Below, piece after piece: positions 3,001 through 19,900 of a DNA stretch of 64,000 nt. Numbering within the stretch: the stretch's first letter is position 1; every line of letters begins with the position of its first letter. Origin of the DNA: Diadema antillarum (taxonomy: Eukaryota); the NCBI RefSeq assembly GCF_040938485.1, contig NW_027271002.1:310001-374000 (forward strand), in the 5' to 3' direction. Made by a program: the position numbers.

Positions 3001-6000
3001 TTGAGGGGGTTATATTTCTTGGAGTCATCATCTCCATCATTGATAAACATCTAATCTCAGATGATTACTGTAAAACGAGGAATGTGCGCGTGCATTTCAA
3101 TTTCGCGAATTTCGCGAGCACCAAGATTCGCGAAATTAAAATGCTCGCAAAATTTCTTATCTACACTATATGCATTGAACGGAAGTGGCAATTTGCGAAA
3201 ATTTCTTGCCACAAAAAAGGTCGTCGGCTCCAATTCATGAAAATTTCGTGCTGCGAATATATCATGTTTTACAGTAATTTGTTAGGTATAAAGAAAGCCT
3301 CAGAGAGCTAGAAAAAAGTAGAGTTCTACACAGACTAAACACCAATTTGGTTTCTTTCTATCTACATAAATTTCTTCCAGTGAATTAACACATTCAGTTA
3401 CAGTGAACATGGTATCAGCCACTGAGAGTTGACAGAAATGAGCTCTTCACAGTAACTGGGGAATGAGAAGAGACTAGATGATGATCGAAGTTTGAGGAGT
3501 CGGGTTTTCTGTTTCTCATTCTGTGGTATGTCATTCCTTGGCTTCAAGTGAGAAGAAAATTAGGCATCCAGAAATGAGATGAGGCACTAAAATACCTGTA
3601 AAAAAAAATAATTCATTCTGAAAGAAATGATGGATACTGACCACACATAATGTACGGTAATCACAATGAAGTTAATTTAATAGTATTCATTCTTTTTTAT
3701 CATTGTAGATGTGTCTACATAGACAAGCACAAAACAAAGTTGATTCATCGTGACAACGAATAAAAAGTCTTCTACAGAGACACCAACACTATTCAGACCT
3801 TGCCTTCAATTAGACATAACTTTGTTCTTGCAGTTTGTAATTTCAGCCTGGAGTCTTTTTATAAGATTACCATAATCCATTCATGACTTCTCATCTGGAA
3901 GATACTAGGGTGATGACATGTTGTGATTCAAGTTATCATTCTAAGTTTCTCATTTTAAATTTAATGACTGTTTATTACAACCTTATGACATGTAGCTGCT
4001 CTGGCCTTTCTACCCCATGACTAAACTTGAGTACAATGTGAAGGAACCGTATTTTACCACTATAATCAATTCTTTCATGATTTGCGTTCATTCTCATACC
4101 CCCCCCCCCTTAACTGTATCTTTTGAGTGTTGAATTCTGAAGGCTACATACTGCTACCATGAAAATGGATTATTTATCAAAAGAAAGAAAAAAGCCATGT
4201 ATGATGCATATCAAAAGTCAAAGAAAACTCACCCACACATTGTCACACCTCTATCCCCTATTAGCTGTCAAACGTAGAATTTTATTCAATTTGATGGGAG
4301 TATTAATATACTCATTAGACACTATTCAGTTACAATGCTGGGAGGTTAACATCAAAAACGCTTAACTGATAGGACAGGAAAGTGTGCACTAATCCTGTAC
4401 AAAACAAATGGACAGCGTGCGGTCCTCAAGCGTATTACGCACATCACCTGAGACCACTCAAAGACGCTTGATAAACAACAACAACAACTTCAAAAACAGC
4501 GCGTCTCTGGTGATATGCGTCTTTGCCTGAGACGCGCTGTCTTTGAAGTTGTGGTTTATCAAGCGCCTTTGATTGTTTTTAGATGATGTTGTTGCCAAAT
4601 TCTTGCCTCCACGAAATAATCCTTATTACTATAAAATCTCGTTCTTCAAAATAATCCCCTTAATCGAAAAAAAAAAGCTACTGCTATAATTTTCAAATCT
4701 TTTTAAGATAATAAAAATACCACTACATTTGGAAATGAATGACGTTTCTACGTGTTCTGAGTTTGTACTTAGCTATCTTTTGTATCATCATGTAGGGTAA
4801 CCATTTTGTGTCCATTTTTATCGCGCGCCTTCCTATCTTGTTACCTCTACTATCTTTGGTTAACATTTTGGTAAAAATGTAATTTTGACATGGTTTTGGC
4901 TCATTAAAAAAAAATGTGAAAATAATGTCTTGCAAACAAATACACTGTCATTAAAACAGTATTTGGTTAGGCTGATAATATACAACAACAAAAAGAATGT
5001 CTGGCTAGCTGTATTTGTCTCAAGATTTATTTCAGTGAATTCTGAGAAATTGACTTAAATCAAGACAAATAAATTCTTCACCATTCTCTTCCTCTGCAGA
5101 CATCACCTTGAAATATCTCAAGAGATTCCTGCAGGCTGCTGGTCTGAACTACAAACCACTCTCAAATTGGCAACACTTCACTCTTTCCAAGATCTGGAAG
5201 CATCTGGGATATGGTTGGTGAAGCAACCACCGGGGTCCACAAATGGAAAGTTTTTGAACGGAAATGTCTTCTGAGGTTGTCTCGGTGCTATTTCTGACAT
5301 GAGGAAAAGTTAGACACATTGAATCACACAAGAGAAAGGAAGCAACGATTGTTCAGTCTGGAAGAGAGAAGTGAGCTAAGGAGAAGTCAGCGACTACAGT
5401 GATGACAGAGAAAATCCCTGGGGACATTTCCGAGAACGTGAGGAGGTGGTAACCTTCAGTCTAGTAACCTGGAGAGAACAGGTTGGAACAAACTGAGACG
5501 GAAGTTAGATGACAGCAATAACTACTCCAGGGAATCGATTAAAGTCAATCTCCTTCAAAGAAGAGGGGGAACTGGTGGAGGACTGTGAGTTTGAGTCATC
5601 CATTTCAGTTTTGACATGGACAATCAGACAGTTTTGCTTAAAAATCCAATTTCAGAGGTGAAGGAATCATGAAATGAACATTTGAATATATAGAGCAAAA
5701 AGGGGCAATTATTACCAATCACATACCACAGAACAAATATTTGTGAGAATCCCAATTTTTGCCAAACTCACTTTGAAGCATTTGATCCAAGATAGGAGAA
5801 AGGCAGAACAATGGCAACAAGAATCCTACATATATGTTCATTCCTGCAGATGTGCATCCTTACATTAGCACAATTCAGTGGGAACATCCCAGCCAATGGG
5901 GGCTTTGTATCAGAGGGTCAACTTCCCATGGAACCCCATGACCCTTGGGCCTCCCTAGGCTACAACTTTCCAAGTGTTCCAGTCAACCCAAACACTCCCT

Positions 6001-16900: not shown

Positions 16901-19900
16901 AACTCTTTGTATTTCATGACAACGATGTGTAACAAACCAGGAGAACACACAGTTACTACCATCCATCATGCCACATCTTCCCTCACACACTGACCACACC
17001 ACTTCAAACTCATCATGGCACATTTCAAATGTTGGAATCCGACTCCCAGTACCACTGCTATGATCCAAACTCTGTAAAGAAGATACTAACCCAACTGTAT
17101 TCTAATCAAGAAGTCAAGTCATACCAAAAGTCAATGCACTTTGATGCTGAGGGACTTTAAAAGGTGTTTGAAGTCTGCAGTCTCTTAATCTCATTATGAA
17201 GCTCCAAAAATTCATGTCGCAGCAACAGATTTCGTCACAGCTAAGCGATAGATTTTGTCACATCTAACCATAAAAAAAGAAGAAAAACAAAGTGTCAATC
17301 CCAATCAATCAACTCTCAGCTTCTTTGCAAACTCTTGAACAAACTCTCAAACAAGCTGATATATGGTGACCTTGGAGATGAATAACTAGCATCTCTCACA
17401 AGGGAGATAAGCTTCCCATCGTCATGACAACAGACGAAGATGAAGTTTGAAACAGTTGACACATCAGCACGCTTCCTTCATTAGCAACTTTAATGTAGGA
17501 TGAAAGAAAATGAAAGTTTGTCTCATTCAATTTCCTGAAATAAAATGACTTTCAGGCAGGATGACATTCAGTCGACTCAGTTCCTAGAAACTCCCCGAGG
17601 AATTAATCGAAACTTGCTTTATCTTAAAATGCCCCTCCCAAAATCTCCAGCAATTTATCTCTTTTTTTCCCCTTTATTCTAACTTTTCAATCCTCTTGTT
17701 TTCCATGCAACAGCTTTGATTCGATCTCCTTTTAGTGCAAATCGATACATTTTTTTTCTCTTATAATGATTTAATGAGTCTTGAAAGCGAGACACTGAGT
17801 AATTTGTGATATAAAAAGCACCAGAAATAGAATATATTATCAATATCATAAATTATATCATACCTATTTCTTCCTTTCAGCAACACTTACATTTCAAGTC
17901 CAAATTCACTTCTTTGACATAGAAGGATGCTATGAACACTATAAAGATGTATGGTTTATAGTGTTCATACTAACTTGTAGTACTTTGCTGAAGACTATGA
18001 AATAAATGAGAAAATTTGATATGTCTTTGACAAATAGTGATTGTTTGTTTTTGTCTATTTTTTTTTTATTTTCCCTGCAGGACCTAGAACCAGACTCACA
18101 GTACACTGTGTGTGTTAGCATCATCCTAATCAACATGAGCCAGACGAATGCTGTCCTCAGGGACCAGTGTGTGGAGGTGCGCACTCGCTCATTGTCCCTC
18201 AATGAGACTGGGTTACCCGTTACCATGGTAGCCATCATCTTGGGAGGCGTGGTGGTAGCACTCATCCTCATCATGCTCTTGGCTCTATGCTGTCAGAGGA
18301 AGTGTCTCCAGACGAGGAGGGCTGTGATTGGTGCAGCAGCCACTGTGAGACGAGCCAGGGCCCAGCAGACCTGTGAGATCCATGGCAACCCAAAGACACC
18401 TCTAGCACCACGGCCATCAGCTGGGAACCCACCAAAGAAGGAGCATGAATACAGCAAACCTGGACCACCTGTTAAGGAAAGAGCACCTCCTAAATTTGGC
18501 TCACCACCCAACAATAGAGTACTACCACATACTAGAACACAAGCACTGACTCCAAAGCCTCTTCAGCTCATGCAGCCTTCCAGAAAACCTGACATCACTA
18601 CAGCCCATGTCTCAGGAAGATGTATCCACGCCAACAATGGAAACAACTCAGCCTCCAGCCCCAAGGATACCTTAGTGATCGACATCCCACCAACGGTTCC
18701 AGAGCATGACATTGCCATGGATGCCATTAAGAAAGCTGCAAGGAACCCAGAGGACCCTGCCATGCAGTCAAGCTACTACGCCCGCTCCTATTCCATCTCT
18801 AGCTCTGAGTACACAGAACATTCTCTCTATGGAGGCAGTAGGAATCCTCTTGTGTCTGCCGTTACCAGGACGACGACACACCCACCTTCCAGTGTATTCA
18901 GGGCTCTACCAAGGTCTGTAGCAAATCACATGATGCGAATCAAAAATGCCCGCGACAAAGATGCAACGGAAGACTTTGATATGGCGAGAACCTACTTCTT
19001 GCCTCGTGCATGACGAGAATAGCAGAGACATGGAAAACCATGGAGCTATAGAAAGAGGCAGTATTTTCTTCAGTACCTATTCTTGCGTGATATAATCACT
19101 GACAAAGGGAGTATGAGGGAGGCAACTGTTGGACAGCAGTAATTATGGCTTCCGCCGGTGTGTGCCACGAGCCAGCCAGGATACCTAAACTTGACAGTCG
19201 GGGCAAGGAAGGAGGAGGTCCTTTCTGGGGGCAATGAGCCTCTCAAACAGAGCAGAAAATAGCTTTAGAGCAACATGAAGAGGAACCCAAGGATGTATCG
19301 TGTGTCTTCTCCTCATGTAGACTACTGTCTCACAGACAGCTACACTACAGCAGACATACAGACTTTTGAAGTCAGTATGAAGGATGTTAGATAAGACTTG
19401 AGTTTCTCTGCGCTCATCACAGGAATGGGGCTTGAAGAGTGTAGAGGAAATGACACTACATTCCAATCTCAGACATGAGGCAATGGTTCAAAGGGAGGTC
19501 AATGTGGCAATGATTCAAAGGAAGGTCAGAGTGGCAGACCAGCTGGAAACTGTGAGAGAAAGCCACTAGAGAGATTGAGGCTTATTGTTTCATCATTAAG
19601 GCAGAAGCAATGTGTGCATGAAAGAAACCTCATGAATATTCATGACAGCTGAAGTAGAAATGTACCTAATTCAATTTCTACCTTTACTGTAGCAAACTAG
19701 AGCAGGATTATAAAGTTACTGCAAATGCACTGATGGCTTTCGATTGACACAAAAACATAAAACAGTATTATGACATCAATCAGAATTGAATCAAAGCCAC
19801 ATGTACAATTTGTACTGTAAGTACAGCTGTAGCATTGCATGTAATTTCAGCTTTTCGGCAAAGGATATTGTAATAAGCATCAATATATCTCATCAATGCA

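What the first reader, a model, noticed from the sequence alone, without database searches (positions are those of the whole stretch)
5811..19013. Type I membrane protein joining a spicule-matrix-like Gly/Pro/Asn repeat region to EGF-FN3-TM
Seen in sequence: a 670-aa spliced product with signal peptide, ~240-aa P/G/N/Q-rich region (HPSNPNPNNPGN, (PSNPGGRQ)x4), one EGF, one FN3, TM and a ~250-aa tail. Established knowledge: EGF-FN3-TM is the membrane-proximal layout of vasorin/slit-like-2 proteins, which carry LRRs N-terminally, and sea-urchin spicule matrix protein SM50 contains GGRQP repeats and PNNPN runs. Inference: this could be an undescribed membrane-tethered, intrinsically disordered matrix or biomineralization protein, or a receptor whose LRR module was replaced by an elastomeric repeat. 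I do not recognise it as a named gene.
Basis: partly seen in the sequence, partly recalled or inferred. Interest (0 to 1): 0.68.

Follow-up and report, generated by a model that had tools for sequence, protein, structure and literature searches.

The report
Membrane protein with proline-rich arm
A real two-exon animal gene encodes a single-pass membrane protein that holds a long, positively charged, proline-rich floppy arm outside the cell on an EGF-fibronectin stalk; the layout is unusual but built from ordinary parts, and its function is untested.

Summary
Two stop-free + strand frames (390 and 335 codons) are linked by ACG|GTGAGT after 6890 and CCCTGCAG|GAC before 18081, both phase 0. That gives 360 + 310 codons.

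I examined each exon separately and never assembled the joined product.

- **Exon 1:** a signal-like helix, then a 234-aa Cys-free arm (P 25%, G 18%, N 11%, pI 11.9), one EGF, and the first half of an FN3. The arm has Pro every third residue (z 5.1) and four PSNPGGRQ units plus a variant fifth.
- **Exon 2:** the FN3 F-G hairpin, a transmembrane helix and a 237-aa basic tail, mostly disordered and matching no Pfam family.

**Families:** it is neither a vasorin (no LRR) nor a spicule-matrix protein (no C-type lectin domain). It shares vasorin's EGF-FN3-TM order and the SM50 family's alkaline Pro-X-Y composition.

**Best reading:** a cell-surface matrix-binding protein with a cationic disordered arm. 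A role in biomineralisation is possible but untested.

**Limits:** The organism is unknown, not human and probably not a vertebrate.

Interest is moderate.

The parts
5811..5882 (+). Start codon and signal-peptide-like N-terminus (aa 1-24, MATR + hydrophobic core; likely cleavage after ...TLA, judged by eye with the -3/-1 rule)
   Evidence: In-frame stop at 5793-5795 and the context AACAATGG. Kyte-Doolittle 19-residue mean 1.6. Modelled as helix 2-23, pLDDT 74-79. No signal-peptide predictor was available.
5883..6584 (+). 234-aa Cys-free, basic, Pro/Gly/Asn/Gln-rich low-complexity arm (aa 25-258). Three sub-regions: aa 25-100 is N/P-rich with aromatics; aa 101-160 is Gly-rich octapeptides; aa 161-258 is P/R/K-rich
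   Evidence: P 25%, G 18%, N 11%, Q 6%; 6 acidic residues; net +18; pI 11.9. Charge-hydropathy plot places it as disordered, and 2P+G = 0.68. Pro-Pro at lag 3: 29 observed against 14.4 expected, z 5.1; at lag 1: 2 against 14.6. No secondary structure in the model. 0 solved-structure matches at E up to 10.
6138..6257 (+). Tandem octapeptide array: PSNPGGRQ x4 plus PSNPGGGN (24-bp units)
   Evidence: Tandem Repeats Finder places the array at 6143-6261: period 24, 5.0 copies, 92% matches. Units read in frame.
6585..6707 (+). One EGF-like domain (aa 259-299), Notch type, not calcium-binding. Cys at 263/268/274/284/286/295. The O-fucose consensus C2-X4-T-C3 is present (CQNRGTC)
   Evidence: PF00008 at 27 bits against cut-off 21.5. 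Notch1 EGF at E 5.7e-15. Cys positions. Consensus sequences from PMC8950332: the O-glucose and O-GlcNAc consensi are not met.
6708..6890 (+). First half of the FN3 domain (aa 300-360, strands A to about E); exon 1 ends in phase 0
   Evidence: PF00041 at 25.2 bits, E 2e-05, profile positions 1-38 of 84. Weak matches to contactin-4 and PTPRD FN3.
6891..18080 (+). Intron of 11,190 nt (GTGAGT...T-rich tract...CAG)
   Evidence: The 10 longest of 52 + strand frames of at least 45 aa inside it give no Pfam family above cut-off.
18081..18191 (+). Second half of the FN3 domain (exon 2 aa 1-37, F and G strands). Cys 11 and Cys 30 face each other across the hairpin. One N-glycosylation sequon, NMS
   Evidence: F-strand motif is unique in the window. 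Beta hairpin aa 7-17 / 24-34 at pLDDT 80-85. Not detected by Pfam or the solved-structure search when sent alone.
18192..18224 (+). 11-aa juxtamembrane stalk LSLNETGLPVT with the sequon NET; a candidate shedding site (inference)
   Evidence: Shedding is proposed by analogy with vasorin (PMC6288187) and with transmembrane ectodomains found in spicule matrix (PMC2909932).
18225..18299 (+). Transmembrane helix (exon 2 aa 49-73), ending in CC-QRKC juxtamembrane cysteines
   Evidence: Kyte-Doolittle 19-residue mean 3.19. Helix 44-96 with pLDDT up to 95.
18300..19013 (+). 237-aa cytoplasmic tail plus TGA. Basic (pI 10.1, net +16), P 12%, with PxxP motifs (e.g. PGPPVK). No Pfam family
   Evidence: Mostly pLDDT below 50, with low-confidence helices at 209-221, 278-288 and 295-305.

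Best explanation
This is a genuine two-exon protein-coding gene on the + strand for a single-pass type I membrane protein.

Shown:
- The gene structure.
- A signal-like N-terminus.
- A 234-residue cysteine-free, strongly cationic Pro/Gly/Asn/Gln arm, with proline at every third position and a short octapeptide array.
- One Notch-type, non-calcium-binding EGF carrying an O-fucose consensus.
- One FN3 domain split by the intron.
- An 11-residue stalk, a transmembrane helix, and a 237-residue basic tail that is largely unstructured.

Inferred mechanism:
- The folded EGF-FN3 pair is a short rigid pedestal.
- The pedestal projects an extended, disordered arm, probably polyproline-II-like, into the pericellular space.
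- There the arm binds polyanionic partners through many weak contacts. Candidates are sulfated glycans, acidic matrix proteins or mineral precursors.
- The ectodomain may be released by cleavage in the stalk and left in the matrix.
- The tail may couple the protein to membrane domains and cytoplasmic adaptors, through its juxtamembrane cysteines, its basic helix continuing from the membrane, and its PxxP motifs.

In short, I read it as a matrix-binding or adhesion-type surface protein, not an enzyme or a classical ligand-activated receptor.
For: Gene model:
- Two exceptional open frames and canonical splice sites in phase 0.
- The two FN3 halves lie exactly at the exon ends.

Domains:
- EGF above the Pfam cut-off, and E 5.7e-15 to Notch1 EGF.

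Arm:
- Composition, charge, charge-hydropathy verdict and proline periodicity.
- No structure predicted and no solved relative.

Membrane segment and tail:
- Transmembrane helix.
- The tail has no Pfam family at E up to 10.
- The protein-atlas neighbours of exon 2 are all FN3-TM-tail surface proteins: LRFN, FNDC9 and a DUF4808/fn3 cluster. The top hit is an unnamed cluster at 0.94 sharing 188 of 256 features.

Precedents:
- Shedding: vasorin is cleaved by ADAM17 (PMC6288187). Transmembrane ectodomains are found in sea-urchin spicule matrix (PMC2909932).
- A basic, disordered, membrane-anchored Gly/Pro-rich matrix protein already exists: Sp-Hypp_2998/2999, pI 11, with a C-terminal TM (PMC2909932).
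Against: - No transcript, orthologue or expression evidence could be examined.
- The second FN3 half is not detected by any HMM on its own.
- Both structure models were made without an alignment and have low confidence (mean pLDDT 45 and 51). Low pLDDT in the arm and tail is therefore weak evidence of disorder.
- Other frames are also open across the repeat region: a 203-aa antisense frame and a 117-aa +-strand frame. The reading frame there rests on continuity from the signal peptide to the EGF.
- Atlas recognition for exon 2 is below the level that known families usually reach (2036 against 2300). Exon 1 has only weak neighbours, SNED1 at 0.77.
- Binding partners, shedding, palmitoylation and adaptor binding are inference only. 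No canonical endocytic or PDZ motif was found in the tail.
Confidence: 0.55

Rival explanations
1. Membrane-tethered biomineralisation protein. The arm is a spicule-matrix-type Pro-X-Y repeat region. It is presented at, or shed into, a calcifying compartment, where it organises matrix or mineral.
For: - The arm matches the published description of the SM50 family: alkaline pI, and short Pro-X-Y repeats with Asn, Gln, Gly or His (PMC2909932).
- An octapeptide P/N/G/Q repeat resembles the PQNPNQPG repeat of brittle-star SM24 (PMC4336488).
- Sp-Hypp_2998/2999 shows that a basic, disordered, membrane-anchored protein can be a major matrix component.
- The ectodomains of the transmembrane proteins P58-A/B occur in spicule matrix, and both proteins are needed for skeletogenesis (PMC4094399).
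- The neighbouring SIDT gene points to a non-vertebrate animal.
Against: - There is no C-type lectin domain.
- The organism is unknown, and there are no expression or proteome data.
- Pro-repeat similarity is shared by unrelated proteins (PMC4227485).
- The arm has only 6 acidic residues.
- The nearest atlas cluster for exon 2 is commonest in chordates.
Confidence: 0.15
2. A vasorin/Slit-like-2 relative in which the N-terminal LRR module was lost or replaced. It would act as a shed trap or co-receptor for a secreted ligand such as TGF-beta.
For: It has the same order of one EGF, one FN3, TM and a tail in a type I protein (PMC6288187).
Against: - No LRR was found in exon 1, in the 12 longest of 26 upstream + strand frames, or in the 10 longest of 52 intron frames.
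- The tail is 237 aa against about 80 aa.
- The best sequence matches are Notch for the EGF and contactin/PTPRD for the FN3.
- The nearest atlas neighbours of exon 1 are SNED1-like, at only 0.77.
- EGF next to FN3 occurs in several unrelated families.
- No vasorin sequence was available for a direct comparison.
Confidence: 0.08
3. An elastomeric tether or mechanosensor. The Pro/Gly arm works as an entropic spring between the matrix and the cell, like resilin or elastin repeats.
For: - Pro plus Gly is 43% of the arm, and 2P+G = 0.68.
- Elastomeric behaviour is reported above a Pro/Gly threshold (PMC7794388). The exact formula I used is recalled from memory.
- The GGR and PGGGN strings echo the resilin consensus units printed in that paper.
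Against: - The Gly-rich repeat part is only about 60 residues.
- The arm has 7 aromatic residues, of which the octapeptide sub-region (aa 101-160) has a single Trp and no Tyr, so the dityrosine cross-linking seen in resilin is unlikely.
- No partner for the distal end is known.
Confidence: 0.08
4. Not a functional gene as modelled: two unrelated open frames, a pseudogene, or a wrong splice join.
For: No transcript evidence was available. The low-complexity region is open in several frames.
Against: - The chance of such open frames is about 1e-6 per window.
- A signal-like start, an EGF above the curated cut-off and a TM segment all lie in one frame.
- An FN3 domain is divided exactly at a canonical phase-0 donor and acceptor.
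Confidence: 0.03

Closest known systems
Vasorin (VASN, Slit-like 2)
   Same: Type I membrane protein with one EGF, one FN3, a TM segment and a tail of no known family; ectodomain shed by ADAM17 (PMC6288187, passages).
   Different: Vasorin has 11 LRRs with flanking motifs where this protein has a disordered Pro-rich arm. Its tail is about 80 aa against 237 aa here. Sequence relatedness of the EGF-FN3 pair could not be tested.
SM50-family spicule matrix proteins of sea urchins (SM50, SM32, SM37, SM29, PM27)
   Same: Alkaline pI, and short Pro-X-Y repeats rich in Asn, Gln, Gly and His (PMC2909932). Repeat arrays that vary and evolve quickly (PMC4336488).
   Different: [quoted passage not shown] This protein has none, and instead has EGF, FN3, a TM segment and a long tail.
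Sp-Hypp_2998/2999, the glycine-rich protein next to P16 in S. purpuratus
   Same: Signal peptide, pI about 11, predicted disorder, Gly/Pro-rich, anchored by one TM segment; abundant in skeletal matrices (PMC2909932; PMC2527298).
   Different: 36 kDa, 30% Gly and 10% Pro, with the TM at the very C-terminus, no EGF or FN3 and no long tail. No sequence was available to compare.
SNED1 and other EGF + FN3 matrix proteins
   Same: Notch-type EGF directly followed by FN3; the nearest atlas clusters for exon 1.
   Different: The scores are only 0.77 and 0.75, which is a lead and not a match. SNED1 is a large secreted multi-domain protein without a TM segment (this last point is recalled from memory).
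Small FN3-TM-tail surface proteins (LRFN/SALM, FNDC9, the DUF4808 group)
   Same: Atlas neighbours of exon 2 at 0.84-0.89. Above them sits an unnamed 278-aa cluster, commonest in chordates, at 0.94.
   Different: No Pfam family of those proteins (FNDC9_C, DUF4808) is found in the tail. Those proteins lack the EGF and the Pro-rich arm.
Resilin repeats
   Same: Gly/Pro-rich units with GGR and PGGGN strings; a disordered elastomer (PMC7794388).
   Different: No chitin-binding domain, only about 5 units, and no tyrosine in the units.

Membership tests
Vasorin / Slit-like 2 | N-terminal leucine-rich repeat region (11 LRRs with flanks) | tested here: not met
   No LRR family in exon 1, in the 12 longest of 26 upstream + strand frames of at least 45 aa, or in the 10 longest of 52 intron frames. 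A signal peptide sits directly before the Pro-rich arm.
Vasorin / Slit-like 2 | One EGF, then one FN3, then a TM segment, in a type I protein | tested here: met
Vasorin / Slit-like 2 | Sequence orthology of the EGF-FN3-tail to vasorins | not testable with these tools
No vasorin chain appeared among the 60 solved-structure matches shown of 94.
SM50/SM30 spicule matrix proteins | [quoted passage not shown] | tested here: not met
   No Lectin_C hit in either exon at E up to 1. The arm has no cysteine.
SM50/SM30 spicule matrix proteins | Region of short Pro-X-Y repeats (X = Asn, Gln, Gly, His); alkaline pI for the SM50 subfamily | tested here: met
   pI 11.9; P 25%, G 18%, N 11%, Q 6%. Pro at lag 3: z 5.1. 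The description comes from PMC2909932.
SM50/SM30 spicule matrix proteins | Expression in skeleton-forming cells and occlusion in the mineral | not testable with these tools
EGF-like domain (PF00008) | Six cysteines in Notch-type spacing, with a score above the curated cut-off | tested here: met
   C-x4-C-x5-C-x9-C-x-C-x8-C. 27 bits against cut-off 21.5. E 5.7e-15 to Notch1 EGF.
Fibronectin type III domain (PF00041) | A complete seven-strand domain: Trp in strand B, Tyr in strand C, the Tyr-corner motif in strand F | tested here: inconclusive
   The first half scores 25.2 bits against cut-off 25. The second half was not detected alone, but its motif is unique in the window and the F-G hairpin is modelled at pLDDT 80-85. 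The whole domain was not scored, because the joined product was not made.
Elastomeric proteins (resilin/elastin type) | Pro + Gly content above the elastomer threshold, with long repeat arrays and cross-linking residues | tested here: inconclusive
   2P+G = 0.68. The threshold formula is recalled from memory; that a threshold exists is from PMC7794388. The array has only 5 units, with no Tyr in them.

The most novel reading that the evidence does not exclude
An invertebrate cell-surface protein that fuses a spicule-matrix-type cationic Pro-X-Y repeat region to an EGF-FN3 pedestal, a membrane anchor and a long signalling tail. It would be a direct physical and signalling link between a matrix- or mineral-forming compartment and the cell that builds it. 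It would have arisen by joining a rapidly evolving repeat module to adhesion-receptor domains.
Probability: 0.12. Interest if true: 0.7.

Novelty: new variant of a known kind. Interest (0 to 1): 0.36.

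Why it matters
How cells hold on to and shape the disordered, repeat-rich matrices they secrete is poorly understood. This is especially true for calcifying matrices.

This protein carries such a repeat region on a membrane anchor with a long cytoplasmic tail. It would therefore give a handle on that interface that can be tested directly by knock-down, shedding assays and binding assays.

If it turns out to be one of many uncharacterised EGF/FN3 surface proteins with a low-complexity spacer, it is ordinary. 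In that case its value is a clean gene model with a phase-0 intron inside the FN3 domain.

Tried and rejected
**Paralogue in the window.** tblastn of each exon's translation against the window found only self hits.

**Solved-structure searches.**
- Exon 2: nothing, best E 0.54.
- The arm alone and the second FN3 half alone: 0 hits at E up to 10.

**Protein atlas.** Exon 1 gave only weak SNED1-like neighbours. For exon 2 only unnamed or generic FN3-TM clusters scored 0.84 or higher.

**Literature.**
- 'Fn3 Egff': 0 papers.
- 'Egff' matched anywhere: 546 papers; the 15 listed were irrelevant.
- Architecture word searches: 3 papers and 6 papers, none describing such a protein.
- Peptide strings PSNPGG and NPGGRQ: 0 occurrences in the 20 rows listed of 26.
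- The P58-A/B paper and Rafiq et al. 2014 are not held. What I say of P58-A/B comes from citing papers.

**Hints about the organism.**
- A match to the Rfam family mir-2008 (an echinoderm/hemichordate family, as I recall) at 25007-25099 scores 39.9 bits against a gathering score of 93. It is the terminal hairpin of a repeat element and its mature arm is not conserved, so I rejected it.
- CpG observed/expected of 0.38 first suggested a vertebrate. Gene-body methylation of two long genes explains it equally well.

**Structure.**
- Prediction without an alignment gave low-confidence models.
- I therefore ran no fold search.

**Not attempted.**
- The joined 670-aa product was not assembled, searched or folded.
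- No complex prediction was run, because I claim no specific binding partner.

Full report
**Scope.** The joined 670-residue product was never assembled, searched or folded. Statements about the whole protein are therefore put together from separate results on the two exons.

**The observation**

The window is AT-rich, with GC mostly between 0.34 and 0.41. There are local peaks at 6-8 kb (0.47) and 18-20 kb (0.45).

Two + strand frames stand out: 5796-6968 (390 codons) and 18006-19013 (335 codons). Apart from frames that overlap these two, or that run through the N stretch, the longest open frame in the window is 151 aa. With the window's base composition, a 390-codon open frame has a chance of 3e-12. 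About 1e-6 frames of at least 335 codons are expected in the whole window.

- The ATG at 5811 follows an in-frame stop and sits in the context AACAATGG.
- Exon 1 ends after 6890 at ACG|GTGAGT.
- Exon 2 starts at 18081, after a T-rich tract and CCCTGCAG.
- Both boundaries are in phase 0, and the frame ends at TGA 19011-19013.

**Exon 1**

- Residues 1-24 are a signal-like segment, MATR followed by a hydrophobic core. It is modelled as a helix.
- Residues 25-258 are a cysteine-free low-complexity arm.
  - Composition is P 25%, G 18%, N 11%, Q 6%, with only 6 acidic residues, net charge +18 and pI 11.9.
  - It falls on the disordered side of the charge-hydropathy boundary, and the model gives it no secondary structure.
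  - It has no match among solved structures at E up to 10.
- The arm is not just biased in composition. Prolines recur at a spacing of three residues (29 pairs observed against 14.4 expected, z 5.1), and adjacent prolines are avoided (2 against 14.6). It is therefore a Pro-X-X region.
- The arm has three parts:
  - an N/P-rich part with aromatic residues (aa 25-100);
  - a Gly-rich part (aa 101-160) holding PSNPGGRQ four times and PSNPGGGN once. This is a 24-bp tandem array with 92% matches, so the array probably expanded recently and may vary in length between individuals (inference);
  - a P/R/K-rich part (aa 161-258, net +14).
- Residues 259-299 are one EGF domain.
  - Pfam scores it at 27 bits against a cut-off of 21.5, and it matches Notch1 EGF repeats at E 5.7e-15.
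  - Its cysteine spacing is of the Notch type. It lacks the calcium-binding start; that consensus is recalled from memory and comes from no call.
  - It carries the O-fucose consensus C2-X4-T-C3, but not the O-glucose or O-GlcNAc consensus sequences (consensus sequences from passages of PMC8950332).
- Residues 300-360 match positions 1-38 of the 84-position FN3 profile. Sent alone, they score 25.2 bits against a cut-off of 25.

**Exon 2**

- The first 37 residues were not recognised as FN3 by Pfam or by the solved-structure search when sent alone.
- They nevertheless begin, 3 nt after the acceptor, with LEPDSQYTVCV. This is the F-strand pattern of FN3 domains; the pattern itself is recalled from memory. 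It occurs once in six frames of the window, against a mean of 0.07 in 30 shuffles.
- In the exon-2 model, residues 7-17 and 24-34 form a beta hairpin at pLDDT 80-85. Cys 11 and Cys 30 lie opposite each other in that hairpin, so a disulfide between them is likely (inference).
- An FN3 domain of about 98 residues is thus divided exactly at the proposed splice sites. This is the strongest internal support for the join.
- The domain leaves no room for a missing exon. The 10 longest of 52 + strand frames in the intron show no domain above cut-off.
- After the FN3 come:
  - an 11-residue stalk with an N-glycosylation sequon;
  - a strongly hydrophobic segment (Kyte-Doolittle mean 3.19), modelled as a helix at pLDDT up to 95;
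  - the juxtamembrane cysteines CC-QRKC;
  - a basic stretch that continues the helix;
  - a 237-residue tail (pI 10.1, P 12%) with PxxP motifs such as PGPPVK. The tail matches no Pfam family even at E up to 10 and is modelled mostly below pLDDT 50.

**Surroundings**

- No second copy of either exon lies in the window.
- Upstream, the 12 longest of 26 + strand frames give no family above cut-off, and in particular no LRR.
- Downstream, on the minus strand, lies a SID1-family (SIDT) gene. Five exons match PF13965 in colinear order, from 61900-62064 (profile positions 3-41) to 39539-39838 (profile positions 340-407).
- Its remaining 3' exons were not located. They should lie between about 20 and 39.5 kb, so the two genes converge.
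- Two SIDT exons were compared with the solved structures of human SIDT1 and SIDT2.
  - The exon at 39539-39838 is identical at 27 of 49 aligned positions to human SIDT2. It scores almost the same against SIDT1 (49.1 bits) as against SIDT2 (50.0 bits).
  - The exon at 40633-40842 is identical at 27 of 38 aligned positions to human SIDT1, and scores 58.3 bits (SIDT1) against 56.1 bits (SIDT2).
  - I counted the identities from the printed alignments.
- I conclude that the window is not human. I infer that it comes from a lineage outside the vertebrate SIDT1/SIDT2 split. This rests on 87 residues and is not proof.
- CpG is depleted throughout (observed/expected 0.38). That fits methylated gene bodies and does not decide the taxon.

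**How it most likely works**

Shown: the gene structure and the domain order.

Inferred: the folded EGF-FN3 pair forms a short pedestal that projects a long, cationic, extended and flexible Pro-X-X arm from the cell surface.

- Such an arm is suited to many weak contacts with polyanions, such as sulfated glycans, acidic matrix proteins or mineral precursors.
- The short stalk could be cut to release the ectodomain, as in two precedents:
  - vasorin (PMC6288187, passages);
  - the transmembrane proteins whose ectodomains were found in sea-urchin spicule matrix (PMC2909932, abstract and passages).
- The tail offers cysteines that could be palmitoylated, a basic helix close to the membrane, and proline motifs for adaptor binding. 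No canonical endocytic or PDZ motif was seen.
- I put about 0.9 on the gene model and topology, and about 0.35 on this mechanism.

**Comparison with known families**

- *Vasorin.*
  - It shares the EGF-FN3-TM order but is defined by 11 LRRs, which are absent here. Its tail is about 80 aa.
  - Relatedness of the shared domains could not be tested.
- *SM50 family.*
  - The repeat and charge features are met. The lectin domain is not, so this is not an SM protein.
- *Other echinoderm matrix proteins.*
  - A brittle-star matrix protein has the octapeptide repeat PQNPNQPG, said to resemble the SM50 repeat (PMC4336488).
  - Sp-Hypp_2998/2999 of the sea urchin is a basic (pI 11), disordered, Gly/Pro-rich protein with one TM segment, and is abundant in all skeletal matrices (PMC2527298).
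  - So a membrane-tethered disordered matrix protein is not without precedent.
- *A caution on composition.* Pro-repeat regions give spurious similarity between unrelated proteins, namely SM50, pericardin and circumsporozoite protein (PMC4227485). Composition is not homology.
- *Resilin.*
  - Its units GGRPSDSYGAPGGGN and GYSGGRPGGQDLG (PMC7794388) share short strings with the octapeptide array. The arm's Pro and Gly content is in the range reported for elastomers.
  - The array is short, however, and its units hold no tyrosine.
- *Atlas neighbours.*
  - For exon 2 the top hit is an unnamed 278-aa cluster, commonest in chordates, at 0.94. LRFN, a DUF4808/fn3 cluster and FNDC9 follow at 0.85-0.89. 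This suggests that relatives of the FN3-TM-tail part exist elsewhere as unnamed proteins.
  - For exon 1 the only neighbours are SNED1-like, at 0.77.

**Novelty and verdict**

The combination of a Pro-X-X cationic arm with one EGF, one FN3, a TM segment and a long tail matched no named family in the libraries I could use.

Every part is of a known kind, precedents exist for the concept, and I could not search eukaryotic protein databases. I therefore rate it a new variant of a known kind, with moderate interest.

The biomineralisation idea remains a fair but untested lead. Its weight depends on the source organism and on expression data. The additional files of the skeletal proteome papers, which could list such a protein, were not open to me.

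Noticed in passing
window 39539-62064, minus strand: A SID1-family (SIDT) gene, convergent with the gene under study. Five exons match PF13965 in colinear order: 61900-62064, 42968-43141, 41298-41519, 40633-40842 and 39539-39838. The exon at 39539-39838 is 55% identical to human SIDT2 and the exon at 40633-40842 is 71% identical to human SIDT1, and each scores almost equally against both paralogues. The 3' exons (profile positions 408-594) were not located.
   Followed up: partly
window 25040-27765; also 347-854: A foldback-like element with 483-nt inverted arms that are 98% complementary (25065-25547 and 27269-27751). It has G-runs at both ends and short terminal hairpins. A solo arm lies at 359-854, after a run of 27 C. 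No long open frame lies inside it. Its terminal hairpin gives a sub-threshold Rfam match to mir-2008 (39.9 bits against a gathering score of 93), which I do not take as a real microRNA.
   Followed up: partly
window 11758-11831, minus strand (inside the intron): A tRNA-like sequence: Rfam tRNA at 40.3 bits, while ARAGORN gives it an undetermined anticodon. It is probably the head of a tRNA-derived repeat and not a working tRNA gene.
   Followed up: no
window 43875-44127: A run of 253 N, lying in an intron of the SIDT gene. I left it as it is.
   Followed up: no
window 14371-14666; 40097-40196; 58087-58788; 59652-60062: Tandem arrays. One has a 34/68-bp unit and lies in the intron of the gene under study. 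One is a perfect 21-bp unit with 4.8 copies. One is a 16-bp CCTCCCTCCCTAAACT-like array of about 44 copies. One has a 43/92-bp unit.
   Followed up: no
window 3065-3215 and 46881-47031; 20180-20262, 21176-21258, 37284-37366, 52275-52379 and others: Several families of short interspersed repeats recur in both orientations across the window, at 75-89% identity. I did not identify them.
   Followed up: no
whole window: CpG observed/expected is 0.38, with an excess of TpG and CpA (1.3). It is lowest in exon 1 (0.22). This is consistent with methylated gene bodies.
   Followed up: partly
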